A stretch of 63,976 bases of DNA, counting the filler, from an uncultured bacterium (GTDB lineage Bacteria > CAZDME01 > JAYEMH01): the NCBI GenBank assembly GCA_964506785.1. It is 3 parts of 3 records of this genome, joined end to end, with 100 filler letters (N's around TTAATTAATTAA, not from the genome) between each part and the next. Parts side by side here need not be neighbours in the genome. Positions count along the whole stretch, not along the records: positions 26,396 to 51,211 come from CAZDME010000016.1; 2 more parts are not named here. One strand, given 5' to 3'. Both the position numbers and the translations under genes were made by a program. Below are positions 39,122 through 51,969 of the stretch, piece by piece (position 1 is the stretch's first letter; each line of letters begins with the position of its first letter). The notes below the pieces were generated by a model. The model ran no database searches and was not told the DNA's origin. It saw nothing but the letters and a program-made list of their open reading frames with translations.

Positions 39122-40305
39122 TGGCACGAACCATTGTTCCCATAGGTCCGTATCATCCCCTGCAGGAAGAGCCGGAATTCTTCAGTCTGACGGTTGAAGG
39201 GGAAAAGGTAGTCGATATCGATGTCCGGGTGGGTTACAATCACCGGGGGATAGAGAAGCTTTCAGAGAGAAAGACTTTTGACCAATCCACCTTTGTTATC
39301 GAAAGGATTTGCGGGATTTGTTCCACCAGCCATCCCTTTGCTTATACCCGGGCGGTCGAGGATATTATTCCTTTAGAGGTTCCGGAAAGGGCTAAGTATA
39401 TAAGGACGATAATTGCCGAAGGTGAGCGGATACACTCCCATCTTTTGTGGGCCGGATTAGCCGGTCATTTTCTGGGATATAACACCGTCTATATGTGGGT
39501 TTGGAAACTAAGGGAAGAGATTCTGGATGTCATGGAGATTTTATCCGGCAACCGGAATAACTACGCCATGTTTAAGCCCGGAGGGGTTCGCAGAGACATA
39601 AAAAAGGAAGATATTCCCCCGGTAATGAAGAAGCTCGATTCGATTATTCCGAACCTGGAGATGTTAAAGAAGGCCATTCGTGATGACCCGGTTCTTCATG
39701 CCCGGACTAAAGGAATAGGCATTCTTACCAAAGAAGATGCTATAAACTACTGCGCTCTGGGTCCGACCTCCCGGGCATCCGGTGTTGCCAGAGACGTGAG
39801 GAAAGATGCCCCTTATGGCGCCTACGATAAAGTGGACTGGCAAATGATTGTTTCCCGTAACGGCGATGTTTTCGACAAACTGATGGTCAGGATTAATGAA
39901 GTCTTGGAATCGATAAAGATAATGAAGCAGTGCCTGCTGAATCTGCCCAAGGGTGAAATAGATGCCAATATCAAAAATATTCCGCCCGGTGAAGGTATTG
40001 GCTGTGCCGAGGCTCCCCGGGGCGAGGTTTTTCATTATGTCAGAAGCGACGGAACCAACCGGCCGGTCCGCCATAAGGTCAGGGCCCCGACTTTTATGAA
40101 TCTGCCTACTTTCAAGGCAACGGTTATTGGCGAGACCATTTCTGATGCCACCATTATTTTAGCTTCTATTGATCCCTGTTATTGCTGCACGGAAAGAATG
40201 GCCGTGCGCAATGTAAAGGGAAAAAAGCTTTATAACGGAGAAGAGCTGATTGAACTTTCAAAGGCAAAAACCCAAAAAATAAAAGATAGAATGGGGATTA
40301 AATGA
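39121..40305 (+). CDS. [NiFe]-hydrogenase group-4 large (catalytic) subunit
   Basis: L1 ERICGICSTSH, EAPRGE, KVRAPT, L2 DPCYCCTER followed by a cleavable C-terminal tail. Confidence 0.93.
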   Translation: MARTIVPIGPYHPLQEEPEFFSLTVEGEKVVDIDVRVGYNHRGIEKLSERKTFDQSTFVIERICGICSTSHPFAYTRAVEDIIPLEVPERAKYIRTIIAEGERIHSHLLWAGLAGHFLGYNTVYMWVWKLREEILDVMEILSGNRNNYAMFKPGGVRRDIKKEDIPPVMKKLDSIIPNLEMLKKAIRDDPVLHARTKGIGILTKEDAINYCALGPTSRASGVARDVRKDAPYGAYDKVDWQMIVSRNGDVFDKLMVRINEVLESIKIMKQCLLNLPKGEIDANIKNIPPGEGIGCAEAPRGEVFHYVRSDGTNRPVRHKVRAPTFMNLPTFKATVIGETISDATIILASIDPCYCCTERMAVRNVKGKKLYNGEELIELSKAKTQKIKDRMGIK

Positions 40306-41981
40306 ATCTCATCCCGGAGTTTTTTAGATTTGACAGCCTTTCTATTTTTGTCGGGATATTCATTGCCTTTTTCACGGTATTAATTATCTTTTATTCTATT
40401 GGTTTCAGCCCTCTTCGGAAATCAGGAAATGGCCGCTCAGGGAAAAGGCTTTTCAGGTATTATTGCTATATCGTTTTGACTTTTTTGGTTTCACTCGGGG
40501 CTGTTTTTTCTAATGACCTTCTTTTATTTATCGTTTTTTGGGGATTCTTAGGCTTTCTTCTATATCTTTTAATCGGTTTTGGAGAAAAAGAAAACACCCC
40601 GGCGACGGCCAAAAAAGCCTTTATCATTATTGGCGGCACCGACGCCCTGATGCTTTTAGGTTTAGCTTTAATCTGGCGTCTTACCGGTTCGTTTCAAATG
40701 GATAAGATAGATATTGCCCTTAATAGCCGGGCGGCTGTTTGGGCTTATCTCTGTCTGGCCGCCGGAGCTTTTGCCAAAGCCGGGGCAATACCTTTTCACA
40801 CCTGGGTTCCGGATACAGCCGAAGATGCCCCGGCGCCGGTAGCCGCTTTTTTACCGGCCTCTTTAGATAAACTTCTGGGCATATATTTTCTTTTCCGGAT
40901 TTCTATCGATATATTTCAGCTGGATACGGCTATGAACACCTTTCTTATGATGATCGGCAGCTTTACTATTATTGCCGCGGTAATGATGGCTCTTATCCAG
41001 CATGATTTTAAAAGACTATTGGGCTATCATGCCGTCAGTCAAGTAGGGTATATGGTTTTAGGTATCGGGACGGGAAATCCTCTCGGTATTGCCGGGGGGT
41101 TATTTCACATGCTTAACCACGCAATTTATAAATCCTGCCTTTTTCTTGGCAGCGGCGCCGTTGAAAAGGATGCCGGGACGACCGATTTAGATAAACTGGG
41201 GGGTCTCGCCAAAATTATGCCCCTTACTTTTATTACCTTTATTATCGCTTCTTTAGCCATATCCGGTGTTCCGCCTTTGAATGGTTTTGCCTCGAAGTGG
41301 ATGGTTTATCAAGGAATAATCGAAACGGCCAAAAATGGAGGGTATCTATGGATAATCTGGCTGGCGGCGGCCATGTTTGGCAGCGCTTTGACCTTAGCCA
41401 GTTTTATGAAACTGATTCATTCCGTATTTCTCGGTCAGCCTTCTAACCAACCGCCAGCCGCTAGTTACCAGCGGCGAGGGACCAGTTTAGCCATCTTATT
41501 TCCCATGCTTATTCTCTCTGCCCTCTGCCTCATATTCGGTATTTTTCCCTACCGGATACCCCTTAAAATGTTTATCTTTCCTAGCCTGGGAGAAAAAGTT
41601 GCCTTTAGCGGTATATGGCCGGCCAGCCTGGCGACGATTCTCTTGATTTTAGGAATTGCCATTGGTCTCATAATCTATCTCCTTGGCAGCCTCAGCAAGA
41701 TGAGGGAAACCAAGCCTTTTCTGGGCGGGGAAGTTTTGGAAGAGCATCCGGATATGAGGGTTTCCGGAACAGAATTTTATAATACCATAAAGGATTTAGG
41801 TTTTTTAAGAACGATTTATAGGCTCGCCGAAATAAAGTTTTTTGACCTTTATGATTTAGGCAGTAAATTCACTTTTGGTTTTAACCGGCTTTTACGTTAT
41901 TTTCATAACGGGATTCTTTCCACCTATTTATCCTGGTGTCTTTTGGGCACGCTCATTCTTTTTTACGTCTTTTTGAGGTAG
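40302..41981 (+). CDS. MrpA/NuoL-like antiporter subunit (N-terminal portion)
   Basis: PFHTWVPD, KRLLGYHAVSQVGY, HMLNHAIYKSCLF, GVPPLNGF. Confidence 0.9.
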   Translation: MNLIPEFFRFDSLSIFVGIFIAFFTVLIIFYSIGFSPLRKSGNGRSGKRLFRYYCYIVLTFLVSLGAVFSNDLLLFIVFWGFLGFLLYLLIGFGEKENTPATAKKAFIIIGGTDALMLLGLALIWRLTGSFQMDKIDIALNSRAAVWAYLCLAAGAFAKAGAIPFHTWVPDTAEDAPAPVAAFLPASLDKLLGIYFLFRISIDIFQLDTAMNTFLMMIGSFTIIAAVMMALIQHDFKRLLGYHAVSQVGYMVLGIGTGNPLGIAGGLFHMLNHAIYKSCLFLGSGAVEKDAGTTDLDKLGGLAKIMPLTFITFIIASLAISGVPPLNGFASKWMVYQGIIETAKNGGYLWIIWLAAAMFGSALTLASFMKLIHSVFLGQPSNQPPAASYQRRGTSLAILFPMLILSALCLIFGIFPYRIPLKMFIFPSLGEKVAFSGIWPASLATILLILGIAIGLIIYLLGSLSKMRETKPFLGGEVLEEHPDMRVSGTEFYNTIKDLGFLRTIYRLAEIKFFDLYDLGSKFTFGFNRLLRYFHNGILSTYLSWCLLGTLILFYVFLR

Positions 41982-41983
41982 CT

Positions 41984-42532
41984 ATGATTGAACTTTATAT
42001 TTTGTTAATCTTTATGATTATCGGGGCCATCGTTGCTATTGAATTGAAAGACCTGCTTTCTTCGGTAATTGCCGTCGGTGCCGTTGGTTTAGGTCTTTCC
42101 ATAGTTTTTTTAATTCTTAAGGCCCCTGATGTTGCCATTACCCAGTTAGTGGTTGAAATATTATGTTTGATTATTTTAATCAGGGCAACTTTAAAGAGGG
42201 ATTTGCCCTTTTCAACCACGGGCCGCTGGTTTTTAAACACGGCGATTACCATCGCTTTTATTTCTGCTTTCTTATGGATGGCGGTTCAAGCCTTGAAGGA
42301 TTTGCCGGAGTTCGGTTATCCGATAATGAAGGTGGCCGGCACCTATTTAAAAAAAGGATTAGCTGAAACCGGGGCCGCCAATTTGGTATCCGCGGTGATA
42401 CTTGATTTCAGGGCCTATGATACCCTGGGTGAGGCGACGGTATTATTTACCGCCGTAATCGGCGTTCTCACTGTTGTCCGGCGGGTAGGCAGAAAAAAGC
42501 CGGATGGAATTATTGAGGAGAATAATGAGTAA
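41984..42532 (+). CDS. MrpA C-terminal/MbhD-E-like subunit (DUF4040)
   Basis: Start MIELY at 41984; APDVAITQ, N.V..VILDFRAYDTLGE. Confidence 0.88.
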   Translation: MIELYILLIFMIIGAIVAIELKDLLSSVIAVGAVGLGLSIVFLILKAPDVAITQLVVEILCLIILIRATLKRDLPFSTTGRWFLNTAITIAFISAFLWMAVQALKDLPEFGYPIMKVAGTYLKKGLAETGAANLVSAVILDFRAYDTLGEATVLFTAVIGVLTVVRRVGRKKPDGIIEENNE

Positions 42533-42977
42533 AGAAGGCGAAAAGGGAATGTCTCTCATTGTCAAAACAATCACCCGCCTGACCGTGGGCTTGATACTTC
42601 TTTATGGAATTTATCTGGTTTTGCACGGCCATGTATCACCGGGGGGCGGTTTTGCCGGCGGGGTTATTATTGCTCTTTCCTTTATCCATCTGATGCTTGC
42701 TTATGGCAAAGAAGCCGCTTTTAAGAAACTCTCGCAATCCGCCGCCTCGTTTTTCGAAAGTTTTGGGGCGATATTATTTCTAACTATTGCCCTTTTGGGG
42801 CTTATCGCCGGGTATTTCTTTTCGAACTTCCTGCCTAAAGGCGAGCCTTTTAGATTATTCAGCGCCGGTATTATTCCGCTTTGCAATATTGCCGTAAGTT
42901 TTAAAGTTGGTGCCGGGCTATTTGCCATATTTGTCGCTCTGGTCTTATTGAAATTGGATTCGGAGAAAAAGAAATGA
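42525..42977 (+). CDS. MrpB/MnhB subunit
   Basis: HGHVSPGGGFAGG; start MSKEG at 42525. Confidence 0.9.
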   Translation: MSKEGEKGMSLIVKTITRLTVGLILLYGIYLVLHGHVSPGGGFAGGVIIALSFIHLMLAYGKEAAFKKLSQSAASFFESFGAILFLTIALLGLIAGYFFSNFLPKGEPFRLFSAGIIPLCNIAVSFKVGAGLFAIFVALVLLKLDSEKKK

Positions 42978-43312
42978 TGGTATATCTGCTTTGTCTGGTG
43001 CTTTTTTGCTGCGGTCTTTACTGTATCTTAAGAAAGCGCAATATCATTAAAATTATTGTCGGGGTGATTATTTCCGAATATGCCGTTAACCTTTTTTTTA
43101 TTTTAACCGCTTACCGGATTAAAGGCCGCTCGCCGATATTTTCAACCGGAGGGGATATTTGCAACATGGTTGACCCCTTGCCGCAGGCTTTAGTCCTGAC
43201 GGCCATTGTCATTGGTCTGGCCACCACTGCCTTACTGGTTGCCCTGGCCATGAGAATATATGAGAAATACGGCACCTTTGATATTACCAAAATCAGGGAA
43301 TTGAGAGGATAG
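42974..43312 (+). CDS. MrpC/MnhC subunit
   Basis: DPLPQALVLTAIVIG. Confidence 0.93.
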   Translation: MMVYLLCLVLFCCGLYCILRKRNIIKIIVGVIISEYAVNLFFILTAYRIKGRSPIFSTGGDICNMVDPLPQALVLTAIVIGLATTALLVALAMRIYEKYGTFDITKIRELRG

Positions 43313-43316
43313 GATT

Positions 43317-44810
43317 ATTAGTATAATTCCGTTTTTCATTATTATACCGCTGGCTGGAGCCTTCCTGGTTTCAATCATCGGTAGGAAGATAAAATGGTTT
43401 CCGGATGCCTTGGGAAATTTCACTACCCTGGCCTTATTTTGTTTTTCTATGCTGGCCGTTCGGGCAGTCAATAGCCAGGGAACTTTGGTTTATAGCCTGG
43501 GGGGCTGGAGGCCGCCGGCAGGGATTGCCATGGTTCTGGATGGTTTAACTGCCTTTATGCTGGCAACCGTAAATTTAGTTGCCTTTCTTATTGCTGTCTA
43601 TGCCGTTGATTATATGGAGAAGTTTACCTCAAAATGGAAATTTTACAGCCTGTATCTTTTGATGCTCGCCGGAATGAACGGAGTGTTGATAAGCGGCGAT
43701 ATCTTTAATCTTTTTGTCTTTTTAGAGATTGCCTCAGTAGCCAGCTATGCCTTAGTTGCCTTTGGCACCGAACGGCACGAGCTTGAAGCCGCTTTTAAAT
43801 ATGCGGTTATGGGCACCGTCGGTTCGCTTTTTATCCTTATTGGGATTGTATTTTTGTACAGTTTTTCTTCAACCTTGAATATGGCCGATATGGCTAATTT
43901 TTTTGGAGAGAAGGGTCCGGGAAACGTTACTATTATGGTCAGCGTTTTATTTATTATGGGTTTTGGCCTTAAGGCCGCCCTTGTTCCTTTCCATGCCTGG
44001 CTGCCTGATGCTCATCCCTCGGCACCGGCTCCGATTTCTGCCATACTTTCCGGGATATTAATAAAATCCCTTGGTGTTTATACCTTAGTGCGGATATTTT
44101 ATAATGTCATCGGCGTAACTCCAAAGCTATCATCGGTATTGATGTTTTTAGGGGCTCTTTCCATGGTTATCGGGGTATTTCTGGCTATCGGCCAATGGGA
44201 TTTCAAAAGGCTTCTGGCATATCACTCAATCAGCCAGATTGGTTATGTGGTTTTAGGTATTGGTTTGGGCACACCACTAGGTATTCTCGGGGGGCTCTTT
44301 CATCTTTTTAACCATTCCGTATTTAAATCGCTTCTATTTTTGAATTCCGGGGCGGTAGAATATGCCACCGGCACCCGTGATTTACGAAAGACGGGCGGCT
44401 TATTTCAGAAGATGCCCTTAACCGGCAGCGCCAATCTCATTGCTTCTATGTCTATTGCCGGTATTCCTCCTTTTAATGGTTTCTGGAGCAAGTTGATTAT
44501 TATAATCGCTGCCGTCCAGGCTGGCCGTTATGGATACGCCGGCTGGGCGGTTTTAGCCAGTATATTGACTCTGGCTTCGTTTACCAAGGTAATGAAGTAT
44601 GTATATTACGGTAAATTGGAAGAGAAATGGAATAAGGTAAAGGAAGTACCGTTTTTTATGAAGCTGGCCATGGCCGCTTTAGCCATTATCTGTTTATTCG
44701 GCGGAGCTTTACTTATTGGGCAAATAAACAGAGCTTTTCTTCAGCCGGCCGTGGAGGTGATTTTAAATGGCCGTAACTATGGTGCCATGCTTTTTAAAAG
44801 GATACTTTAG
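43317..44810 (+). CDS. MrpD/MnhD antiporter subunit
   Basis: DIFNLFVFLEI, KAALVPFHAWLPDAH, KRLLAYHSISQ. The frame extends to ATT at 43317 with a canonical first helix (IIPFFIIIPLAGAF). Confidence 0.9.
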   Translation: MSIIPFFIIIPLAGAFLVSIIGRKIKWFPDALGNFTTLALFCFSMLAVRAVNSQGTLVYSLGGWRPPAGIAMVLDGLTAFMLATVNLVAFLIAVYAVDYMEKFTSKWKFYSLYLLMLAGMNGVLISGDIFNLFVFLEIASVASYALVAFGTERHELEAAFKYAVMGTVGSLFILIGIVFLYSFSSTLNMADMANFFGEKGPGNVTIMVSVLFIMGFGLKAALVPFHAWLPDAHPSAPAPISAILSGILIKSLGVYTLVRIFYNVIGVTPKLSSVLMFLGALSMVIGVFLAIGQWDFKRLLAYHSISQIGYVVLGIGLGTPLGILGGLFHLFNHSVFKSLLFLNSGAVEYATGTRDLRKTGGLFQKMPLTGSANLIASMSIAGIPPFNGFWSKLIIIIAAVQAGRYGYAGWAVLASILTLASFTKVMKYVYYGKLEEKWNKVKEVPFFMKLAMAALAIICLFGGALLIGQINRAFLQPAVEVILNGRNYGAMLFKRIL

Positions 44811-45308
44811 ATGAAAAGTAGAGCCGTTTTATTTCTTGTTTCTTTTCTGGTTTGGTCACTCTTGAACTGGATGCCGGATTGGCAGCATCTTCTCGTCGGC
44901 TTTTTTATCGCTCTTTTTATTGCTTTTATGACCGGGGATTTATTTATCAGGAGGCCTCATGTTTTAAAACATCCCTGGCGTTACTGGTATTTCTTTGCGG
45001 AGTATCTGCCGGTATTTCTCTGGGAATGTTTAAAGGCTAATATTGACGTTGCCTATCGGGTATTGCATCCGCGCCTGCCGATAAATCCGGGCATTGTTAA
45101 AGTGAAGACACGCCTCAAGTCGGATACGGCCTTAACATTTTTGGCCAATTCCATCACCTTGACTCCCGGGACGATGAGCGTTGATATCGACCGGGAAAAT
45201 AATATTTTGTATGTTCACTGGATTAATGTCCGTAGTACCGACGTTGAAGGGGCAACCAGGATGATTGTTGGCCGTTTTGAAGGCATATTGGAAAAGATTT
45301 TCGATTAG
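44811..45308 (+). CDS. MrpE/MnhE subunit
   Basis: ANIDVAY..LHP..INPGIV, LANSITLTPGT, LYVHW. Confidence 0.93.
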   Translation: MKSRAVLFLVSFLVWSLLNWMPDWQHLLVGFFIALFIAFMTGDLFIRRPHVLKHPWRYWYFFAEYLPVFLWECLKANIDVAYRVLHPRLPINPGIVKVKTRLKSDTALTFLANSITLTPGTMSVDIDRENNILYVHWINVRSTDVEGATRMIVGRFEGILEKIFD

Positions 45309-45317
45309 GGTAAAAAG

Positions 45318-45686
45318 ATGAAAACCATTCGCTGGTTTATTGGCGCCGTTATTTTATCAGGGCTGGTTGCTTTGATTATTCTCCGGCCGCTTCCGTTTCT
45401 TTTTTATCCGGATCTTCCGTACCTCAATTTTTTGGGCCGGGCCCTTTACATAATTATTCTTGCTTGTATCTTAGCCCTTTTTAGGATATGGAAGGGGCCA
45501 ACCGGCGCTGACCGTATTGTTGCCATAGATATTCTTGGTATTATGATTGTCGGTCTCTGTGCTGTTTTGACCATTTCCACCGGCCGCTCCTGGTATATCG
45601 ATATTGGCATTGCCTGGGCCCTGCAAAGTTTTATCAGCACCCTGGCCCTTTCCAAATATTTAGAGGGAAAAGGGTTTGAAGAGTAA
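45318..45686 (+). CDS. MrpF/MnhF subunit with extra N-terminal TM
   Basis: RIWKGPTGADRIVAID. Confidence 0.88.
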   Translation: MKTIRWFIGAVILSGLVALIILRPLPFLFYPDLPYLNFLGRALYIIILACILALFRIWKGPTGADRIVAIDILGIMIVGLCAVLTISTGRSWYIDIGIAWALQSFISTLALSKYLEGKGFEE

Positions 45687-45713
45687 AAATACGGATTTAC
45701 AGAGAAAAGGATA

Positions 45714-46049
45714 ATGAATATTCCGATAGGTTTAGTATTTATCAGTTTGGGTTTAGCCTTTGATTTTTTTGGTTGTCTGGGGCTGGTTCGTCTTCCGGAT
45801 ATATACAATCGTTTGCAGGCGGCGACAAAATGCGTCACTCTGGGTACCTGCAGTATTCTTTTTGGCACTTTTCTGATTGTTGGGTTTTGCGCCGCCGGGA
45901 TGAAAGCCCTTTTATGCATAATCTTTCTTCTTTTGACTGCGCCGGTATCCGCCCATGCCTTAGCCAGGGGCGCCCACCGCTCGGGGGTGAAACTTTGCCA
46001 GGGTAGCCTCGTTGATAAATACAGGGAAGATAAAGAAGGTGAAGTTTAA
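45714..46049 (+). CDS. MrpG/MnhG subunit
   Basis: GLVRLPDIYNRLQAATK..TLG, TAPVSAH. Confidence 0.93.
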   Translation: MNIPIGLVFISLGLAFDFFGCLGLVRLPDIYNRLQAATKCVTLGTCSILFGTFLIVGFCAAGMKALLCIIFLLLTAPVSAHALARGAHRSGVKLCQGSLVDKYREDKEGEV

Positions 46050-46051
46050 AA

Positions 46052-46663
46052 ATGAAACTTCCAAAAATAAGAGAATTAATTGAGGCCATAAAGGCGTTAA
46101 TAAAAGGGCCTTACACCACAAAATTTCCAAAAGGTTCGTACCGGCCCCACCCAAATTTCCGGGGACAGCCCAAGTTTGACCGGGAGAAATGTGTAGGGTG
46201 TCTCGCCTGCGAAGAAATTTGTCCGGTAGAGGCCATTGCCCATAAAGATATTATTGATGGGGGTGGAAAGGCCAGGCGGGTTATGATTCATTATACCGAT
46301 ACCTGTATATTCTGCGGCCAGTGTGAAGCCGCTTGTATCGCTGAACACCAGGGAATTAAACTCTCCAATGACTGGGAGCTTTCTTTTTTTGACAGAAAAA
46401 ACGAATCATCTGAAACCATTGAGAAAGAACTTCAGCTTTGCGAGATGTGCGGAACGCCCATTGCCTGTAAAGACCATCTTAACTGGATTGCCGAGAAACT
46501 AGGCGAGCTTACTTATTCCAGCCCCACATTATATTTATCCCGCCTTAAAAGTTTGGGGATAATCGATGAAAATATTATATCTTCTTTAAAAGATGAGGGG
46601 CGTTCCGACCGGGTAAAAATTCTTTGCGCCCGCTGCCGCAGAAAGACTACCCAAACGACCTGA
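46052..46663 (+). CDS. NuoI/HycF/MbhN-like 2x[4Fe-4S] subunit
   Basis: FRGQP, CVGCLACEEICP, CIFCGQCEAAC, extra CEMC/CARC. Confidence 0.92.
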   Translation: MKLPKIRELIEAIKALIKGPYTTKFPKGSYRPHPNFRGQPKFDREKCVGCLACEEICPVEAIAHKDIIDGGGKARRVMIHYTDTCIFCGQCEAACIAEHQGIKLSNDWELSFFDRKNESSETIEKELQLCEMCGTPIACKDHLNWIAEKLGELTYSSPTLYLSRLKSLGIIDENIISSLKDEGRSDRVKILCARCRRKTTQTT

Positions 46664-46668
46664 TAGCC

Positions 46669-47151
46669 ATGCGCTCCACTTTTAAAAAGATACTTAAAGG
46701 GAAAGTTATTGTTCTGGGTGTGGGCAATATTATGCGTGGGGATGATGGCTTCGGCCCGGCTCTTATTGAAAACTTGAGCCGGCCCTCCGGCCGGGCTGAA
46801 TCAACGAGAAAATTTATTTTTATTGACGCCGGCAGCGCCCCGGAGAATTATCTGGGTAAGATTATAAAAGAAAAGCCCGATACTGTTTTAATCGTTGATG
46901 CTGTTCACCTCAACTTATCGCCGGGTAAATACGAACTTTTAAAAAAGGCGGAAATAGCCAACTGCGGTTTAACCACGCATGACATCTCACCCGGTTTATT
47001 TATCGATTTTTTAGAGAAAGAGACGGATGCCGACATTTATTTTTTGGGACTTCAGCCTAAGAATATTACCTTGGGAGATGATATGTCAGTTGAGGTTAAA
47101 AAATCCGTTATTGAACTATCCGGATTGATTAAGGGGGTGACAAATGCATGA
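46669..47151 (+). CDS. hycI: Hydrogenase maturation endopeptidase (HycI-like)
   Basis: LGVGNIMRGDDGFG, GSAPEN, IVDA, TTH, GLQP; ATG at 46669. Confidence 0.92.
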   Translation: MRSTFKKILKGKVIVLGVGNIMRGDDGFGPALIENLSRPSGRAESTRKFIFIDAGSAPENYLGKIIKEKPDTVLIVDAVHLNLSPGKYELLKKAEIANCGLTTHDISPGLFIDFLEKETDADIYFLGLQPKNITLGDDMSVEVKKSVIELSGLIKGVTNA

Positions 47152-47386
47152 ATCACATCTGATTGAGCCGGTAATCAAAGGTGTATCCGAACATGCCCGA
47201 AAAGAGGGGGCAAAGGCGGTATCTAAATTAAGGCTGAAAATCGGCCTTCTTACCGGTGTGAAAGAAGAATCGTTTAAAGAGACATTTTACCTTCTTGCCA
47301 AAGGAACTGTTTTGGAGAAGGCTGAGCTTGAATTGACCTTTTCCCCGGATTCAAAAATAGAAGTTGTTTCTTTTGATGTAGAATAA
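47144..47386 (+). CDS. hypA: Minimal HypA nickel metallochaperone lacking the zinc-finger domain
   Basis: MHE Ni motif, V..LRLKIG.LTGV..ESF..F....GT..E.AEL; 80 aa with no Cys. Confidence 0.85.
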   Translation: MHESHLIEPVIKGVSEHARKEGAKAVSKLRLKIGLLTGVKEESFKETFYLLAKGTVLEKAELELTFSPDSKIEVVSFDVE

Positions 47387-47419
47387 CTCTTGTTATGCTG
47401 GTTAAGAAAATCTTTAAGA

Positions 47420-47494
47420 ATTTAAAATTTAAAATATACAATTTCCAAATTACAAATAGAATATTTGTAATTTGTTAGTTGTACTTTGTAATTC
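47420..47494. repeat. AT-rich heptameric/palindromic repeat (same family as 4516-4595)
   Basis: Perfect 13-bp stem caaattacaaata-gaa-tatttgtaatttg (47446-47474). Confidence 0.7.
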
Positions 47495-47509
47495 TGGATA
47501 TAATGAAAT

Positions 47510-48814
47510 ATGTGTTATGCCATTCCTGGAAAGGTAAAGGAAATAAGCGGGAGGACTGTTCTGGTCGATTATTTTGGCCAGACCAAAAAGGCGATTAACG
47601 AATTCTATGATATCCGTCCCGGGGATTATATTTCTGCTCAAGGAGGTTATGTAATAAAAAAGGTGCCGCCTGAGGAGGCGGAAGATATCCTTTCTGCCTG
47701 GGGGGAACTTTTCTTTGAACTTCAGGAAGTTGACCTGCGTCTTTCCAGCCTGGATTTTGAAAAAAAGGATATTGATAAAAAACTAAGCCTTATTTTGGAT
47801 AGGGCCTTAGAAGGCCTTCCTTTAAGGCGTGAGGACTTGTCCTATTTAATCAGTCTTGATAATCCAAAGGCTCTGGATTTTTTATTCAAGACAGCCAATT
47901 TCCTCCGTCAGAAATTTCACCAGAATTCCTGCTGTGTCCACGGCATAATCGAAATTTCGAATTATTGCCGGAGGGCCTGTCTTTATTGCGGTATATCAAC
48001 CCACAATAAAAATATTGTCCGCTACCGGATGAAGGCTGATGAGATTGTTGCTGCGGCTAAAGAAGCCGTCGAAAAATACGGCTTCCAGGCTTTGGTTTTA
48101 CAAAGCGGCGAAGACCCTCTTTATAGCCTTGATGAGCTTGCCGCTATCATCGAGAGGATCAAAAAAGAAGCGGCTGTGTTGATTTGCATAAGTTTTGGGG
48201 AAATCGGCCTAGCCGGTTTGGAAAGACTTTATCGAGCCGGTGCCCGGGGAATTCTTATGCGTTTTGAAACCTCCAATCGGGAAATCTTTAAGCGGCTTCA
48301 TCCCGGCCAGGAGTTAGCCGCCAGATTGGCCCATTTAAAAAAAGCGGCCGAGTTGGGTTACTTAATTATGACCGGGGGGCTTATCGGCCTGCCCGGACAA
48401 ACCAGTGAAGATATTATAAATGACCTTTATCTGGCCAAAGAACTTGGGGCGGAGATGTATTCTTTTGGTCCTTTTCTGCCGCATCCGGAAACACCTTTAT
48501 CTGAAAGCCCTCCTCCTTCAGAAGAGAGGGTTTTAAAAACCCTGGCCTTAGCCAGGCTTATTGACCCGGAAAACGCTAAAATCTTGGTTACCACTGCTTT
48601 TGAAACCTTAAGTGCGGCGGCGCGGAGGAAAGGACTTGTTTCCGGGGCCAGCTCGGTCATGCTTAATGTCACTCCTCTTAAATACCGCCGGCATTATTCG
48701 ATTTATCCGGATAAAGCCTATAGTACCGAGGCGGTAAATGTTCAGATTGAAGAAACCGTTTCTTTGCTTAAGTCTCTGGGGCGGGCGCCTACGGATTTAG
48801 GCACAGATAAATAA
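47510..48814 (+). CDS. HypC/HupF-domain + HydE-like radical SAM fusion protein
   Basis: N-term MCYAIPGKV...VDYFG...PGDY...EEAE (HypC). C-term HGIIEISNYCRRACLYCG, RYRM, VLQSGED, ET, GLPGQT, GPFLPHPETPL, TTA, YSIYPDK (HydE/PylB-type). Confidence 0.9.
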   Translation: MCYAIPGKVKEISGRTVLVDYFGQTKKAINEFYDIRPGDYISAQGGYVIKKVPPEEAEDILSAWGELFFELQEVDLRLSSLDFEKKDIDKKLSLILDRALEGLPLRREDLSYLISLDNPKALDFLFKTANFLRQKFHQNSCCVHGIIEISNYCRRACLYCGISTHNKNIVRYRMKADEIVAAAKEAVEKYGFQALVLQSGEDPLYSLDELAAIIERIKKEAAVLICISFGEIGLAGLERLYRAGARGILMRFETSNREIFKRLHPGQELAARLAHLKKAAELGYLIMTGGLIGLPGQTSEDIINDLYLAKELGAEMYSFGPFLPHPETPLSESPPPSEERVLKTLALARLIDPENAKILVTTAFETLSAAARRKGLVSGASSVMLNVTPLKYRRHYSIYPDKAYSTEAVNVQIEETVSLLKSLGRAPTDLGTDK

Positions 48815-48840
48815 AAATTTTTGAACATTAGTTTCCAATT

Positions 48841-49491
48841 ATGAAAAACCGGAAAGCAATAAATAAAAACGTTTTTTCCCTGGGTACCATTAAACGTCTT
48901 AGTTTATATCTACGAAATTTAAAGATTCTGAGAGAACGCCGCATCGAAATTATTTCCTCCGATAAAATAACCCGTTTTCTCAATGTTACCCCGGTTCAGT
49001 TTAGAAAAGACCTTTCTTTTTTTGGCGGCTTTGGAAAAAGAGGGGTTGGCTACCGGGTGGAAAAGTTAATCCAGGAGATTGAAAATATATTAGGGGTAAA
49101 TAAAGAGTGGCATATTGTCCTGGTTGGAGCCGGAAAATTAGGCAGCGCTCTTTTAGGCTTTGACGGCTTTTCGAAATTCAATATTAAAATAATCTATGCC
49201 TTTGATATCGATAAGGATAAGATAGGCAAGACAAGGAAAGGGGTAAAAATAGAGGATTTAGAAAAAATGAAAGATATCGTTAAACAAAATAACATTAAGC
49301 TGGCGATAATTTCTACCCCGCCGGAAGTAGCCCAGGGTATAATAAATGATTTGGTGAAATCGGGAGTAAGGGGTTTTTTGAATTTTGCCCCGGTCGCCCT
49401 TAAGGTTCCTGATGATATTTCCGTTTCAAATGTTGATATGGCCTGTGAGCTGGAAAGTTTAATATTCTTTGCCAAGAAAAGGCATATTTAA
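48841..49491 (+). CDS. rex: Redox-sensing (NADH/NAD+) repressor Rex
   Basis: TIKRLSLY, QFRKDLSFFG.FGKRGVGY, VGAGKLGSAL, LNFAP. Confidence 0.96.
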   Translation: MKNRKAINKNVFSLGTIKRLSLYLRNLKILRERRIEIISSDKITRFLNVTPVQFRKDLSFFGGFGKRGVGYRVEKLIQEIENILGVNKEWHIVLVGAGKLGSALLGFDGFSKFNIKIIYAFDIDKDKIGKTRKGVKIEDLEKMKDIVKQNNIKLAIISTPPEVAQGIINDLVKSGVRGFLNFAPVALKVPDDISVSNVDMACELESLIFFAKKRHI

Positions 49492-49514
49492 ATCCATAAC
49501 TTAAGGATTACAAG

Positions 49515-51011
49515 ATGTTGGCCGATACCGTAAAGCTCAATTCCTGGATAGATAATCGGATAAAAAAAGAACAAATTACAAAATACCTGAATGGAGAGAG
49601 AGATTTTATCGATCAGGATAAAATCCGCCGCCTTTTAATTTCCTCAGAAAGGCCGGGTACCCAGATGGTCAGGGATATCCTTAAGAAATCAGAATCTATT
49701 CAAACTTTGACCCTTGAAGAAACCGCCGCGCTTTTGAATGTTACCGATAGAGATTTATGGGAAGAAATGAAAGAAAAAGCCGGCCAGATCAAGCAAAAGG
49801 TTTATGATAACCGCATTGTCACCTTTGCCCCGCTGTATATGAGCAACCTCTGTGTCAATAATTGCCTTTATTGCGGTTTTCGCAAAGACAATTGGCAGAC
49901 CAAAAGGCAGATGCTCACTTTAGATGAGGTGAGAAAAGAGACAGAGGTTTTAGCCGGAGAAATTGGCCATAAGCGCCTGATAGTTGTTTATGGGGAGCAT
50001 CCGGAAAGTGATATCGATTATATGGCTTCCACCATAAAGGCCATCTATCAGGTTAAGACAAAAACAAAAAGAGCCTTTGGCCAAATCCGCCGGGTAAATG
50101 TTAATGCCGCGCCCTTATCCATCGAAAATCTCAAGATTCTTCATCAGGTAGGTATCGGCACTTATCAGGTATTTCAAGAGACCTATCACCGGCCTACTTA
50201 CCGGGCAGTTCATCCTCAGGGAACTCTCAAATCCGATTATCAATGGCGCCTTTATTGTATGCACCGGGCATTCGAGGCCGGGGTAGATGATGTCGGTATT
50301 GGTGTTCTTTTTGGCTTGTATGACTGGCGGTTTGAAGTTTTAGGCCTTCTTTCTCATGCCCGTGAGCTGGAGGAAAAATTTGGCATTGGCCCTCACACTA
50401 TTTCCTTTCCCCGTCTGGAGGAAGCGGCCAATAGTCCTTTTACCCGGCATCCGGCTTACAAGGTTAGTGATGAAGATTTTGAGAAGCTAATTGTAATTAT
50501 CAGGCTATCCGTTCCTTATACCGGAATGATTCTCACTGCCCGGGAGACCCCGGCAATAAGAAGAAAGGTTATTTCTTTGGGCTGTACCCAGACTGATGCC
50601 TCAACCCGTATCGGCATCGGCGCTTATAGCGACCGCTATACTGAACAGGAAGGAAAGCGCCAGCAATTTTTCTTAGGTGATACCAGAAGCCTGGATGAGG
50701 TAATAAGGGATTTAGCCGAGATGGGCTACATTACTTCCTTTTGTACCGCCGGGTATCGCTGCGGGCGCACCGGTAAATGCATTATGGATTTATTAAGAAA
50801 GGGCGAAGAGAGATGGTTCTGTAAATTGAATGCCGTTTTAACCTTTGAAGAATATCTTCAGGATTTTGCCGATGAAGAAACCCGGCTTGTTGGGAAAAAA
50901 CTGGTTGAAAAAGAAGCGAAAGAGATTGAGGAGAAAATCCCCAAGCTAAAATCCAGATTCAGGGAATACTTGACACGCATTGGAAATGGAGAACGAGACC
51001 TCTATTTTTGA
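49515..51011 (+). CDS. hydG: [FeFe]-hydrogenase maturase HydG (tyrosine lyase, CO/CN- synthon producer)
   Basis: FAPLYMSNLCVNNCLYCGF, YGEHP, RRVNVN, FQETYH, GPHTISFPR (dangler His), C-terminal CTAGYRC-X19-C auxiliary cluster motif, GERDLYF. Confidence 0.95.
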   Translation: MLADTVKLNSWIDNRIKKEQITKYLNGERDFIDQDKIRRLLISSERPGTQMVRDILKKSESIQTLTLEETAALLNVTDRDLWEEMKEKAGQIKQKVYDNRIVTFAPLYMSNLCVNNCLYCGFRKDNWQTKRQMLTLDEVRKETEVLAGEIGHKRLIVVYGEHPESDIDYMASTIKAIYQVKTKTKRAFGQIRRVNVNAAPLSIENLKILHQVGIGTYQVFQETYHRPTYRAVHPQGTLKSDYQWRLYCMHRAFEAGVDDVGIGVLFGLYDWRFEVLGLLSHARELEEKFGIGPHTISFPRLEEAANSPFTRHPAYKVSDEDFEKLIVIIRLSVPYTGMILTARETPAIRRKVISLGCTQTDASTRIGIGAYSDRYTEQEGKRQQFFLGDTRSLDEVIRDLAEMGYITSFCTAGYRCGRTGKCIMDLLRKGEERWFCKLNAVLTFEEYLQDFADEETRLVGKKLVEKEAKEIEEKIPKLKSRFREYLTRIGNGERDLYF

Positions 51012-51029
51012 TTTTTCCTCCCATAAGAT

Positions 51030-51959: not shown

Positions 51960-51969
51960 AAAGGCAATA

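What the first reader, a model, noticed from the sequence alone, without database searches (positions are those of the whole stretch)
47510..48814. HypC-HydE fusion with a remodelled HypC site and a divergent HydE pocket
Seen: one uninterrupted 434-aa frame. Residues ~1-70 are HypC-like, with the essential Cys2 (MCYAIPG) kept but the conserved His of 'VLVHVGFA' replaced (ISAQGGYV). The radical SAM barrel keeps CxxxCxxC, QSGED, the Met before GPF, and the YxxY motif. It differs from my recollection of the HydE consensus at pocket positions: RGLIE to HGIIE, DRYLLRHET to RGILMRFET, GIGPF to SFGPF, PATTAL to LVTTAF, NVVMPN to SSVMLN. Inference: a specialised subfamily with an altered product, and a HypC domain that no longer needs to pair with HypD.
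Basis: partly seen in the sequence, partly recalled or inferred. Interest (0 to 1): 0.8.

Follow-up and report, generated by a model that had tools for sequence, protein, structure and literature searches.

The report
HypC–HydE fusion replacing HypDEF maturases
A widespread fused protein (a nickel-iron hydrogenase chaperone joined to an iron-iron hydrogenase radical enzyme) sits, together with HydG, exactly where the usual HypC-D-E-F genes sit in sister genomes, which suggests an undescribed way of building the nickel-iron hydrogenase cofactor.

Summary
The 434-aa frame at 47510-48814 is real: a HypC domain (Cys2 kept, conserved His replaced by Gln44) fused to a HydE-like radical SAM barrel. 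It is no artefact: 118 of the 120 best database clusters share the architecture, and contigs of three runs span it without indels. The barrel belongs to a well-supported clade inside the HydE radiation. That clade keeps the SAM cluster and the two Fe-holding methionines (M316, M384). At the barrel bottom it has lost two arginines (TmHydE R54 and R155 become H144 and G247) and gained Cys142.

Context gives the main result. The gene follows a group-4 [NiFe] hydrogenase, HycI and a short HypA, and precedes Rex and HydG. In a 201-genome phylum sample, 24 genomes carry the fusion. All 24 have a [NiFe] protease. None has HypD, HypE or HypF, and the fused domain is their only HypC. Thirteen also lack HydF and HydA. 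By contrast, 47 protease-bearing genomes have HypD and no fusion. Orthologous hydrogenase operons (78-86% identical large subunits) carry either hypF'-hypC-hypD-hypE or the fusion-rex-hydG in the same slot.

Best reading (about 0.6): HydG plus HypC–HydE supply the Fe-CO/CN unit of [NiFe] hydrogenase without HypDEF.

The parts
37297..46663 (+). Group-4, Mbh/Mrp-type membrane-bound [NiFe] hydrogenase operon. It holds NuoH-, NuoB-, NuoC- and NuoD-like subunits, Mrp antiporter-like subunits and a NuoI-like 2x[4Fe-4S] subunit.
   Evidence: NCBIfam matches. The gene order is conserved in L003, L004, L007, L012 and L014.
39121..40305 (+). [NiFe] large subunit (394 aa). It has both Cys pairs (RICGICSTSH and DPCYCCTER) and a C-terminal extension for proteolytic processing.
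   Evidence: Translation. Orthologues at 78-86% identity are served either by HypD or by the fusion. No column of the alignment separates the two sets (0 of 396).
46624..47151 (+). HycI-type hydrogenase maturation endopeptidase.
   Evidence: TIGR00072 at 102.5 bits (cut-off 47.45); TIGR00142 at 114.5 (cut-off 119.1); Pfam HycI.
47144..47386 (+). Short HypA (80 aa): the Ni-binding N-domain with M-H-E at its start and no Zn-finger domain.
   Evidence: Pfam HypA covers profile positions 1-66 of 112; sequence. The same 80-aa form occurs in related loci and also in the HypD-type relative L048.
47510..48814 (+). HypC–HydE-like fusion protein (434 aa), the subject of the finding.
47510..47701 (+). 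HypC domain (residues 1-64). Cys2 lies at 47513-47515. Gln44, which replaces the conserved His, lies at 47639-47641.
   Evidence: Pfam 47.7 bits; alignment to 2z1c. Cys2, Gln44, Gly45 and Gly46 are invariant in 21 family members. This domain is the only PF01455 match in each of 24 genomes.
47702..47806 (+). Helical linker (about residues 65-99): the C-terminal helix of HypC, a loop, then a helix.
   Evidence: AF2 secondary structure shows helix 54-78 and helix 90-100. Residues 64-82 pack on 420-434 in the complex model. Short-linker forms of 392-393 aa exist.
47930..47941 (+). C141-C142-V143-H144, the family-specific Cys/His motif at the N-terminal (bottom) end of barrel strand beta-1. It replaces V51-H52-I53-R54 of TmHydE.
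   Evidence: Alignment. C141, C142 and H144 are invariant in 21 members. C142 and H144 are each present in 25 of 27 clade rows, against 0 and 0 of 117 other HydE rows. The motif lies in the predicted interface with the HypC N-terminus.
47966..47989 (+). Radical SAM cluster motif C153-x3-C157-x2-C160.
   Evidence: Aligns to TmHydE C63/C67/C70; invariant.
48455..48457 (+). Met316, equivalent to TmHydE M224 (the ligand of the Fe(CO)2(CN) intermediate in the S3 site).
   Evidence: Alignment; Met in 27 of 27 clade rows. Role taken from PMC11826987 (passages) and PMC10114646 (section 6, part 1 of 2).
48659..48661 (+). Met384, equivalent to TmHydE M291 (the second Fe-holding methionine).
   Evidence: Alignment; Met in 26 of 27 clade rows. 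Role taken from PMC11826987 (passages).
48841..49491 (+). Rex redox-sensing repressor, conserved between the fusion and HydG.
   Evidence: NF003995 at 246.9 bits. In the same position in L001, L003, L004, L006, L007, L012 and L014.
49515..51011 (+). HydG, the radical SAM tyrosine lyase that makes CO, CN- and the Fe(Cys)(CO)2(CN) synthon in [FeFe] hydrogenase maturation.
   Evidence: TIGR03955 at 461.4 bits (cut-off 312.15). Matches T. italicus HydG 4wcx at E 4e-147. Encoded in 11 of 13 fusion loci. Fused in frame to the HypC–HydE protein in L019 (915 aa); P0125 (906 aa) and P0134 (881 aa) have lengths that fit the same triple fusion, but their C-terminal halves were not examined.

Best explanation
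The gene encodes the central enzyme of a HypD/HypE/HypF-independent route for putting the iron-carbonyl-cyanide unit into [NiFe] hydrogenase. The proposed steps are as follows.

1. HydG (49515-51011) cleaves tyrosine to CO and CN- and builds the Fe(Cys)(CO)2(CN) synthon, as it does for [FeFe] hydrogenase. This is inferred from family membership.

2. The HydE-like barrel binds that synthon, and 5'-deoxyadenosyl radical chemistry strips off the cysteine backbone. The Fe(CO)2(CN)S fragment then passes from top to bottom of the barrel over M384 and M316. This is inferred from conservation of the SAM cluster and of the residues equivalent to TmHydE M291, M224, R159, E161, T268, T269, Y303, Y306 and K309.

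3. In ordinary HydE two fragments dimerise for HydF. Here, instead, the fragment is caught at the remodelled bottom site by Cys142 and His144 and by Cys2 of the tethered HypC domain, which caps the barrel bottom. The barrel would thus play the scaffold role of HypD. This is inferred from the family-specific residues and from the predicted domain interface.

4. The HypC domain hands the iron unit to the apo large subunit. The short HypA then inserts Ni and HycI trims the C-terminus (standard steps, inferred).

One point is unsolved. The HydG synthon carries 2 CO and 1 CN, whereas the [NiFe] site needs 1 CO and 2 CN. One CO must therefore be exchanged for a second HydG-derived cyanide somewhere along the route.
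For: Position. The fusion lies directly after a bona fide [NiFe] hydrogenase operon, HycI and HypA, and before Rex and HydG. HycI-HypA-fusion recurs in 8 of 13 fusion loci, with a divergent version beside a group-3-type enzyme in L008. In L009 the fusion follows another group-4 enzyme whose large subunit ends at DPCISCTER.

Co-occurrence in a 201-genome sample of the phylum:
- The fusion is in 24 genomes, and all 24 have the [NiFe] protease.
- None of the 24 has HypD (E<=0.001), HypE or HypF, and only 1 of 24 has HypB.
- The only PF01455 (HypC) match in each of the 24 is the fusion itself.
- HypD occurs in 49 of the other 177 genomes.
- Among the 76 protease-bearing genomes, 24 have the fusion only, 47 have HypD only, 5 have neither and none has both (Fisher p = 3e-15, not corrected for kinship).
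- Thirteen of the 24 have neither HydF nor HydA, yet all 13 have HydG.
- Of the 15 genomes with HydG but no HydF, 13 are fusion genomes.

Displacement in place. In G148, whose large subunit is 84% identical to the window's, the order is NuoI-HycI-HypA(80 aa)-HypF(C-terminal half)-HypC-HypD-HypE. In the window it is NuoI-HycI-HypA(80 aa)-fusion-Rex-HydG. On a large-subunit tree the HypD/fusion label changes 5 times, with at least 4 changes forced by well-supported branches. The window's enzyme is sister to a HypD-type one (support 99/92). None of 396 large-subunit columns separates the two types.

Paralogy. At least seven genomes (G093, G193, G058, G185, G194, G205, G097) hold both an ordinary HydE, next to or near the single HydG found, and the fusion. 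Where the protease match lies on the fusion's contig, it is next to the fusion.

Gene fusion. A HypC-HydE-HydG triple fusion exists (915-aa ORF in L019). P0125 (906 aa) and P0134 (881 aa) are of like length, but their C-terminal halves were not examined.

Structure. The AF2 model has pLDDT 91.4 and pTM 0.91. Its barrel matches TmHydE at TM 0.90-0.95. When the two domains were folded as separate chains they docked with ipSAE 0.69 (three runs: 0.69, 0.78, 0.69), against a best control of 0.00. That mark was reached by 58 of 80 solved complexes and 2 of 110 mismatched pairs. The runs agree in at least 84% of their contacts and the partner's pLDDT is at least 79. The counts hold only roughly, because my own alignment was used and small molecules rode along. 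The interface holds HypC residues 1-5, 44-45 and 47, and barrel residues 142-145, 190-194, 222-224, 246, 285, 315 and 385, which are the N-terminal ends of the barrel strands.

Other lineages. Two 0.8-Mb MAGs labelled as DPANN archaea carry the fusion plus HydG and a [NiFe] large subunit. Neither HypD nor HydA was found in them.
Against: - There is no biochemical, genetic or expression evidence of any kind.
- All the genomes are metagenome-assembled. No completeness figures were given, so each single absence is weak. The argument rests on the pattern across genomes and on the shared locus.
- The CO:CN ratio of the known HydG/HydE product (2:1) does not fit the [NiFe] site (1:2), and I found no gene that would correct it.
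- Both Fe-holding methionines that ordinary HydE is proposed to use for dimerising two fragments are kept. A dimeric product is therefore not excluded.
- Ten of the 24 fusion genomes have HydF, and these ten plus one more (11 of 24) have HydA, so a role of the fusion in [FeFe] maturation cannot be excluded there.
- HydG was not found in 2 of the 24 (G113, G167).
- The Cys2-to-Cys142/His144 geometry is inferred from interface lists. I had no coordinates and measured no distance.
- The unusual HydG auxiliary-cluster motif in the window proved to be a lineage trait that also occurs beside ordinary HydE/HydF. HydG therefore shows no adaptation to the new task.
Confidence: 0.6

Rival explanations
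1. The protein is an ordinary [FeFe] hydrogenase HydE that happens to carry an extra N-terminal domain. It works with HydG and HydF on HydA, and its place next to the [NiFe] operon is incidental.
For: HydE is the best family match (TIGR03956, 242.8 bits). The protein is 36-38% identical to TmHydE with the same fold. The catalytic methionines and the SAM site are kept. Ten of the 24 carriers have HydF, and these ten plus one more (11 of 24) have HydA. Some database records name it HydE.
Against: - In 13 of the 24 carriers neither HydF nor HydA was found.
- Carriers that do have an [FeFe] system keep a second, ordinary HydE inside the hydE-hydG-hydF-hydA cluster, while the fusion lies elsewhere, beside the [NiFe] protease.
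- The score is below the curated HydE cut-off.
- The clade is separate and has lost R54 and R155.
- The fusion excludes HypD perfectly in the sample.
Confidence: 0.07
2. The fusion and HydG supply only part of the [NiFe] ligand set, for example the CO ligand, whose anaerobic source is not known. Cyanide and the scaffold function would then come from unrecognised, non-homologous proteins elsewhere in the genome.
For: The 2 CO: 1 CN make-up of the HydG synthon fits poorly with a complete replacement. The anaerobic origin of the CO ligand in the standard pathway is an open question (general knowledge, recalled, not from a call). The sole HypC is fused to the enzyme, so the iron must pass through it either way.
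Against: HydG makes cyanide as well as CO. HypE and HypF, the only known cyanide route, were found in 0 of 24 carriers. No further conserved gene accompanies the module: downstream of HydG the loci diverge (and for the window's own proteins). HypF, HypC, HypD and HypE are replaced as a block at the same locus.
Confidence: 0.13
3. The apparent loss of HypDEF is an artefact of incomplete or chimeric metagenome bins. Alternatively, these reduced-genome organisms make hydrogenase that is inactive or is matured by a partner. The fusion would then make some unrelated sulfur- or iron-containing product.
For: All genomes are MAGs of 0.8-3.1 Mb without completeness figures. The labels of several records disagree on taxonomy. 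HypB is missing too, which could point to general decay of the maturation system.
Against: Three unlinked searches (HypD, HypE, HypF) each gave 0 of 24, while HypD was found in 49 of the 177 other genomes assembled in the same way. Some carriers have very long contigs, for example a 1.26-Mb contig in the 1.8-Mb genome G160. In relatives the hyp genes lie in the very slot that the fusion occupies on the same contig, so binning cannot have removed them. The large subunits keep all four Cys ligands and are under the same constraint as in HypD-type relatives. HycI and HypA are retained.
Confidence: 0.08

Closest known systems
HydE of [FeFe] hydrogenase maturation (Thermotoga maritima TM1269; PDB 3iiz, 7o1o, 7o1t, 8qmk)
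   Same: Full (beta-alpha)8 radical SAM barrel: TM-score 0.90-0.95, rmsd 1.5 A over 336 columns, 36-38% identity, phmmer E 4e-64. It has the same CX3CX2C motif and QSGED, and the equivalents of R159, E161, M224, T268, T269, M291, Y303, Y306 and K309. It is encoded next to HydG.
   Different: - An N-terminal HypC domain is fused on.
- The score is below the curated family cut-off.
- R54 and R155 at the barrel bottom are replaced by His and Gly, H52 by an invariant Cys, G226 by Ser, and P292 is lost.
- There are no C-terminal cysteines for an auxiliary cluster (sequence).
- It occurs without HydF and HydA in 13 of 24 genomes, and alongside a separate ordinary HydE in others.
HypC/HybG/HupF chaperone and the HypC–HypD scaffold complex of [NiFe] hydrogenase maturation (Thermococcus kodakarensis HypC 2z1c; HypCD and HypCDE complexes 3vyr-3vyu)
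   Same: Met-Cys start with the essential Cys2. Same length and predicted beta-barrel-plus-helix layout (strands 7-52, helix 54-78). Pfam match over the cut-off. 37% identity to the free-standing HypC of a sister genome. Encoded right after HycI and HypA in a [NiFe] hydrogenase operon.
   Different: The conserved His is replaced by an invariant Gln44. HypD was found in none of the carrier genomes. The domain is covalently tied to a radical SAM barrel, and is predicted to lay its N-terminus on that barrel's bottom opening. There a Cys/His pair (C142/H144) may play the part that conserved Cys and His residues of HypD play in the standard scaffold (this last comparison is recalled, not tested).
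The HydG-HydE-HydF pathway for the [2Fe] subcluster of [FeFe] hydrogenase
   Same: It uses HydG and a HydE-type enzyme in series. In genomes that hold both pathways, the one HydG found lies in the [FeFe] cluster, so the same HydG seems to serve both.
   Different: HydF and HydA are not needed. The target is inferred to be a [NiFe] large subunit, the carrier is a HypC domain rather than HydF, and the product must be mononuclear.
   Same: Same barrel superfamily. PylB 3t7v gives TM 0.86 and BioB 0.80-0.85.
   Different: The scores are far below the family cut-offs: PylB 153.2 against 348.2, BioB 106.9 against 225, HmdB 79.7 against 320.9. BioB-like proteins of the same genomes fall outside as the outgroup in the tree.

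Membership tests
HydE (TIGR03956, [FeFe] hydrogenase H-cluster radical SAM maturase) | Whole-protein score at or above the curated cut-off of the equivalog model | tested here: not met
   242.8 bits against a cut-off of 254.6. HydE is still by far the best-scoring family.
HydE (TIGR03956) | CX3CX2C radical SAM cluster and a (beta-alpha)8 barrel superposable on TmHydE | tested here: met
   C153/C157/C160 align to C63/C67/C70. Foldseek TM 0.90-0.95 to 3iiz, 7o1p and others.
HydE (TIGR03956) | Residues that hold the Fe(CO)2(CN) intermediates (TmHydE M224, M291; K309 relay) | tested here: met
   M316, M384 and K402 align to them. In the clade Met is present in 27 of 27 and 26 of 27 rows, and Lys or Arg in 23 of 27. 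The roles are taken from PMC11826987 (passages).
HydE (TIGR03956) | Arginines at the barrel bottom (TmHydE R54, R155), conserved in ordinary HydE | tested here: not met
   H144 and G247 stand in their place. Arg is present in 109 of 117 and 100 of 117 other HydE representatives, and in 0 of 27 clade rows at either position. That these arginines line the S3 anion site is my recollection. The review section I read names the site but not its residues.
HydE (TIGR03956) | Genomic co-occurrence with HydF and the [FeFe] hydrogenase HydA | tested here: not met
   HydF was found in 10 of 24 carriers and HydA in 11 of 24. Neither was found in 13 of 24.
HydE (TIGR03956) | Placement within the HydE radiation in a tree | tested here: inconclusive
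   The clade lies inside the HydE radiation when the tree is rooted on BioB-like proteins, but it is a separate clade (SH-aLRT 99; 27 rows). This was a quick search with a single model, and 12 of 159 rows were dropped as fragments.
HypC/HybG/HupF (PF01455, TIGR00074) | Family model score over the cut-off | tested here: inconclusive
   Pfam gives 47.7 bits against 28.5 (met). TIGR00074 gives 38.1 bits against 48 (not met).
HypC/HybG/HupF | N-terminal Met-Cys, with Cys2 as the iron ligand | tested here: met
   The protein starts MCYAIPG. Cys2 is invariant in 21 of 21 members and aligns to Cys2 of 2z1c.
HypC/HybG/HupF | Conserved His (E. coli His51; the numbering is recalled) near Cys2 | tested here: not met
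   Gln44 aligns to the His of Thermococcus HypC and of the free-standing HypC of G148. Gln is invariant in alignment A1.
HypC/HybG/HupF | Works as a complex with HypD | tested here: not met
   HypD was found in 0 of 24 carriers at E<=0.001, and in 0 of 5 and 0 of 5 further sets. Binding itself is not testable here.
HypC/HybG/HupF | Delivers the Fe unit to the [NiFe] large-subunit precursor | not testable with these tools
   Only context speaks for it: the gene follows the large subunit, HycI and HypA in the operon, and it is the only HypC in the genome.
PylB / BioB / HmdB | Score over the curated cut-off of the equivalog models | tested here: not met
   153.2 against 348.2, 106.9 against 225, and 79.7 against 320.9.

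The most novel reading that the evidence does not exclude
In these bacteria, and in some MAGs labelled as DPANN archaea, [NiFe] hydrogenases get both their CO and their CN ligands from tyrosine. The route would run through HydG and a HypC-tethered HydE-type radical SAM enzyme, with no HypD, HypE, HypF or carbamoyl phosphate. This would be a second, independent biosynthetic route to the [NiFe] cofactor. It would also be a direct evolutionary and chemical bridge between the [FeFe] and [NiFe] maturation machineries, which are held to be unrelated. It would further be a [NiFe] system in which the anaerobic origin of the CO ligand is known.
Probability: 0.5. Interest if true: 0.95.

Novelty: new variant of a known kind. 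Interest (0 to 1): 0.88.

Why it matters
The maturation of [NiFe] and of [FeFe] hydrogenases is taught as two unrelated pathways: HypA-F on one side and HydE/F/G on the other.

A module in which HydG and a HydE-type enzyme feed a HypC domain, and which takes the exact place of hypF-hypC-hypD-hypE beside orthologous [NiFe] hydrogenase operons, would join the two. It would show that the Fe(CN)2(CO) unit can be made by radical SAM chemistry from tyrosine.

It would also make an old open question testable in a defined three-protein system, namely where the CO ligand of anaerobically matured [NiFe] hydrogenase comes from.

There are practical consequences as well:
- It offers a much smaller maturation gene set for heterologous production of [NiFe] hydrogenases.
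- It corrects annotation. Sources now name the family variously biotin synthase, HydE, radical SAM protein or HypC.
- Genome surveys that infer '[FeFe] hydrogenase maturation' from hydE and hydG, or a 'non-functional [NiFe] hydrogenase' from missing hypCDEF, would need revision for these lineages.

Tried and rejected
- **Whole genome of the window.** None is held. All genome-level statements therefore come from relatives reached through loci.
- **A HydG specialised for the new task.** The window's HydG has CTAGYRC...C in place of the usual CTACYR auxiliary-cluster motif. The same variant occurs in HydG genes that lie beside ordinary HydE/HydF (G093, G193, G058, G185, G205, G097, G170) and in the HypD-type genome G013. 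Other fusion loci (L005, L010, L011, L022, L023, L041, L042) have the usual motif. I rejected the variant as a marker of the pathway.
- **A hydrogenase altered to take a different cofactor.** None of 396 large-subunit columns separates the 10 fusion-type from the 9 HypD-type enzymes.
- **Further conserved partners downstream of HydG.** L003 continues with an aldo/keto reductase, an epimerase, a HAD hydrolase, a nuclease, an M48 peptidase and a tRNA synthetase. None of them recurs in the window.
- **Expression.** No RNA holder was listed.
- **Geometry.** I have only the interface lists.
- **Residues of the TmHydE S3 site.** The 2008 structure paper is not held. The review's section 6 (part 1 of 2 read) names the site but not its residues.
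- **Literature.** Eight full-text searches found no paper that describes a HypC–HydE fusion or a role of HydG/HydE in [NiFe] maturation.
  - PMC9324843 (passages) describes an Mbh-Mrp hydrogenase in the phylum Auribacterota; the passages seen say nothing about its maturation.
  - PMC11216029 (passages) does not mention HypC. It notes archaeal genomes with incomplete HydEFG sets; its Table S3 is a supplement I could not open and may list some of these proteins.
- **Contexts of the unfused Cys-x-His-type HydE representatives** (for example P0143, P0147, P0210).
Full report
**1. The observation**

The frame 47510-48814 (+) is open for 434 codons from an ATG.

- *Domains.* Pfam finds HupF_HypC on residues 1-64 (47.7 bits, cut-off 28.5), Radical_SAM on 147-304 and BATS on 323-424.
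- *Family scores.* NCBIfam puts HydE first at 242.8 bits, just under its curated cut-off of 254.6. PylB (153.2), BioB (106.9) and HmdB (79.7) are far below theirs.
- *Solved structures.* The barrel matches T. maritima HydE (E 4e-64, residues 99-428) and the N-terminus matches Thermococcus HypC.
- *Residue mapping.* The printed alignments give C153/C157/C160 = TmHydE C63/C67/C70, Q198 = Q107, R251 = R159, E253 = E161, M316 = M224, T361/T362 = T268/T269, M384 = M291, Y396/Y399 = Y303/Y306 and K402 = K309. Against these stand H144 for R54, C142 for H52, R246-G247 for D154-R155, F252 for H160, S318 for G226 and L385 for P292.
- *HypC part.* Cys2 aligns with Cys2, and Gln44 with the conserved His.

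**2. The fusion is not an artefact**

- Of the 120 best clusters at 90% identity (61-100% identical to the query), 118 carry both Pfam domains at 431-454 aa. The other two are shorter.
- A scan of one genome per species found 13 loci that match from residue 1.
- Five DNA runs of four studies hold 96% or more of the sampled words of 46600-51050.
- Contigs of X5, X1 and X2 each cover 47100-49600 in one piece with one or two substitutions and no indel. X1 and X2 may be the source sample.

**3. A distinct subfamily**

A library-wide HMMER search gave 3448 hits at E<=0.001. I aligned the best 150 with the query and eight proteins read from loci, and dropped 12 of the 159 rows as fragments. I then built a tree of the barrel, rooted on three BioB-like proteins from carrier genomes (IQ-TREE short search, LG+G4).

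- All 16 fused rows fall in one clade of 27 rows (SH-aLRT 99) inside the HydE radiation. Nine rows that carry the same Cys-x-His signature but lack a recognisable Met-Cys HypC start belong to it too, plus two others.
- Compared with the other 117 HydE rows, the clade has Cys at 142 (25 of 27 against 0 of 117), His at 144 (25 of 27, against Arg in 109 of 117), Gly or Ala at 247 (27 of 27, against Arg in 100 of 117), Ser at 318 (25 of 27, against Gly in 86 of 117) and never Pro at 385.
- Both groups keep E148, Q198, L249, R/K251, E253, M316, T361, T362, M384, Y396, Y399 and K/R402.

According to a QM/MM study (PMC11826987, passages) and a structural review (PMC10114646, section 6 part 1), M224 and M291 of TmHydE hold the Fe(I)(CO)2(CN)S fragments. 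The M224-bound species lies in the lower 'S3' site, and the reaction is thought to run from the top of the barrel to the bottom.

So the upper, chemical half of the barrel is conserved. The changes cluster at the N-terminal (bottom) end of strands beta-1 and beta-4: two arginines lost, one Cys and one His gained. Strand beta-1 runs over residues 142-148 in the model.

**4. Context in the window**

- Upstream lies a complete group-4, Mbh/Mrp-type [NiFe] hydrogenase (37297-46663). Its large subunit has RICGICSTSH and DPCYCCTER plus a C-terminal extension.
- Next come HycI (46624-47151) and an 80-aa HypA that keeps the M-H-E start but has no zinc domain (47144-47386).
- Downstream come Rex (48841-49491) and HydG (49515-51011; 461.4 bits against a cut-off of 312.15).
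- tblastn with the HypD, HypE and HypF of a relative finds nothing in the 64-kb window. A NikR homologue lies at 12765-13175.
- HycI-HypA-fusion recurs in 8 of the 13 fusion loci, and HydG is present in 11 of 13.
- L008 puts the fusion behind a different, group-3-like enzyme with its own protease and short HypA. L009 puts it behind another group-4 enzyme whose large subunit ends at DPCISCTER and so needs no protease.

**5. Genome-level pattern**

I sampled 201 genomes of the phylum that holds locus L003. Records of this group are titled Omnitrophota or 'uncultured Planctomycetia'.

- *Carriers.* The fusion is in 24 genomes: 22 match from residue 1, and two are short-linker forms confirmed as 392-393-aa ORFs.
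- *Other genes in the sample.* HypD is in 49, the [NiFe] maturation protease in 76, HydG in 96 and HydF in 83.
- *Cross-tabulation.* All 24 carriers have the protease and none has HypD. Of the 49 HypD genomes, 47 have the protease. The 76 protease genomes split into 24 fusion-only, 47 HypD-only, 5 with neither and 0 with both (Fisher p = 3e-15, not corrected for kinship).
- *Other Hyp genes in the 24 carriers.* HypD 0 of 24 at E<=0.001, HypE 0 of 24, HypF 0 of 24, HypB 1 of 24. PF01455 gives exactly one match per genome, the fusion's own N-domain.
- *[FeFe] genes in the 24 carriers.* HydF is in 10 and HydA in 11. Thirteen carriers thus have no sign of an [FeFe] hydrogenase, yet all 13 have HydG. 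Of the 15 genomes with HydG but no HydF, 13 are carriers.
- *Further carriers.* Nine more reached through loci also lack HypD, which makes 33 genomes in all. Two of them are 0.8-Mb bins labelled as DPANN archaea. These have a [NiFe] large subunit, and no HydA was found in them.
- *Caveat.* All are metagenome bins and no completeness figures were given.

**6. Displacement at the same locus**

Large subunits 78-86% identical to the window's occur in 15 sampled genomes: five with HypD (G155, G072, G180, G148, G076), eight with the fusion, and two with neither.

- In G148 the operon continues NuoI - HycI - HypA (80 aa) - HypF (C-terminal half only; 353 aa, 262.6 bits) - HypC (72 aa) - HypD - HypE - NikR.
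- The window continues NuoI - HycI - HypA (80 aa) - fusion - Rex - HydG. The two modules therefore occupy the same slot.
- On a large-subunit tree (21 rows, careful search) the label 'HypD' or 'fusion' needs five changes, at least four of them forced by well-supported branches. The window's enzyme is sister to that of HypD-type G072 (99/92), and fusion-type G138 is sister to HypD-type G186 (97/91). The exclusion is therefore not the echo of a single ancient split.
- No alignment column separates the two kinds of large subunit (0 of 396). The cofactor they receive should thus be the same.

**7. Two HydE paralogues and one HydG**

In G093, G193, G058, G185, G194, G205 and G097 an ordinary, unfused HydE (35-42% identical to the query) lies next to or near HydG. 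HydF and HydA lie in that cluster too in most of these genomes.

The fusion lies elsewhere. Where the protease match is on the same contig, it sits next to the fusion. Only one HydG per genome was found at E<=1e-80, so the same HydG appears to serve both.

A HypC-HydE-HydG triple fusion exists: the 915-aa ORF of L019 starts with the HypC motif and ends with the HydG C-terminus. P0125 (906 aa) and P0134 (881 aa) have lengths that fit the same architecture, but I did not examine their C-terminal halves.

**8. Structure**

- AF2 on a 21-member alignment gave pLDDT 91.4 and pTM 0.91.
- Foldseek puts TmHydE first (TM 0.90-0.95), then PylB (0.86).
- Folded as two chains with a 4Fe-4S cluster and an Fe ion riding along, the HypC domain docks on the barrel with ipSAE 0.69 (runs 0.69, 0.78, 0.69), against a best control of 0.00. 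The runs agree in at least 84% of their contacts and the partner's pLDDT is at least 79.
- That mark was reached by 58 of 80 solved complexes and 2 of 110 mismatched pairs. The counts hold only roughly here, because my own alignment was used and small molecules rode along. I know of no solved HypC-HydE complex that the model could recall.
- The interface lists HypC residues 1-5, 21-26, 42, 44-45, 47, 49-50 and 64-82. On the barrel it lists 142-145, 190-194, 222-224, 246, 285, 315, 385 and the conserved C-terminal G-R-A-P-T-D stretch.
- In the model, then, the HypC N-terminus with Cys2, and the remodelled His-to-Gln site, cover the bottom opening of the barrel where Cys142 and His144 sit.

**9. 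Reading**

The simplest account of all this is that HydG and the HypC-HydE protein together do what HypC, HypD, HypE and HypF do elsewhere.

- HydG makes the iron synthon with CO and CN.
- The barrel removes the cysteine by radical chemistry, as HydE does.
- The fragment is trapped at the new Cys/His site together with Cys2 of the tethered HypC, rather than being dimerised for HydF.
- The HypC domain passes it on to the large subunit.

What is shown: the architecture, the subfamily, the context, the complementary distribution, the shared locus and the predicted docking. What is inferred: every chemical step.

The weak points are these:
- The ligand count does not fit. The known synthon carries 2 CO and 1 CN, while the [NiFe] site carries 1 CO and 2 CN.
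- Both methionines used for dimerisation in HydE are kept.
- There is no expression or activity evidence.
- The genomes are metagenome bins.

I put about 0.6 on the general claim and less on the details. The rivals are an ordinary HydE with an extra domain, a partial supplier of CO only, and a binning artefact or unrelated product. They are scored in their own section.

**10. Novelty**

Eight full-text searches found nothing on such a fusion or on HydG/HydE acting in [NiFe] maturation. Two papers on hydrogenases of candidate phyla and archaea (passages only) do not mention it. A supplementary table of the second paper, which I could not open, may list some of these proteins as incomplete maturase sets.

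Public records name the family inconsistently. The parts are known families. What is new is their fusion, the remodelled barrel bottom, and their use in place of HypCDEF.

Noticed in passing
window 50736-50830 (HydG residues about 408-440): The auxiliary-cluster motif of HydG reads C-T-A-G-Y-R-C-G-R-T-G-K-C, not the usual C-T-A-C-Y-R. The second Cys of CX2C is a Gly, and new Cys residues stand 6 and 12 positions after the first. This is a lineage trait: it also occurs in HydG genes beside ordinary HydE/HydF and in a HypD-type genome, so it is not tied to the fusion. What it does to the [4Fe-4S]-dangler-iron site is unknown.
   Followed up: partly
window 47144-47386; L048 10155-10397: HypA is only 80 aa (Ni-binding N-domain, no zinc-finger domain) throughout this group. 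That includes relatives with the standard HypCDE set. HypB was found in only 1 of 24 fusion genomes. Nickel insertion seems to run on a minimal HypA alone.
   Followed up: partly
L048 9092-10153 (-): The HypD-type relative G148 has a 353-aa HypF that covers only profile positions 391-739 of 741, the C-terminal half of the HypF model. It lacks the N-terminal half (by recollection, the acylphosphatase, zinc-finger and YrdC-like parts).
   Followed up: no
L019 651-3398 (+): HypC, the HydE-like barrel and HydG are joined in one 915-aa frame in genome G160. Representatives P0125 (906 aa) and P0134 (881 aa) have matching lengths, but their C-terminal halves were not examined.
   Followed up: partly
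P0134, P0140, P0142, P0145 (library representatives): This is a second, more divergent group of fused proteins. They start MCLTIP (closer to ordinary HypC), keep Cys142/His144, and have Thr, Tyr or Ala where the main group has Gln44. Unfused members of the same clade also exist (for example P0143, P0147, P0210). Their gene contexts are unknown.
   Followed up: no
window 34811-37300: Directly upstream of the hydrogenase operon lie sulfhydrogenase beta/gamma-like (AsrA/AsrB-like) flavin/FeS subunits and a 4-cluster ferredoxin-like protein. They may be an NAD(P)H-linked electron module for the membrane-bound enzyme.
   Followed up: no
window 51328-54510: Fur, two FeoA genes and FeoB (ferrous iron uptake) follow HydG, after the N runs. 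Iron supply genes thus sit next to the iron-cofactor module. This part is not conserved in the related loci.
   Followed up: partly
window 12765-13175 (-): A NikR homologue lies here, 58% identical to the NikR that ends the hyp cluster in G148. In the window it is 34 kb away from the hydrogenase genes.
   Followed up: no
window 26296-26339, 26352-26395, 51212-51255, 51268-51311: There are four runs of 44 N, in two pairs. The second pair falls just after HydG, so linkage of HydG to the Fur/Feo genes rests on scaffolding or masking.
   Followed up: no
L010, L011 (genomes G207, G208): The fusion (48-50% identical) with HydG next to it occurs in two 0.8-Mb bins labelled Micrarchaeia and Woesearchaeota. 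These bins also hold a group-3-like [NiFe] large subunit. HypD, HydA and the protease were not found in them. Whether the contigs truly belong to archaea was not checked.
   Followed up: partly
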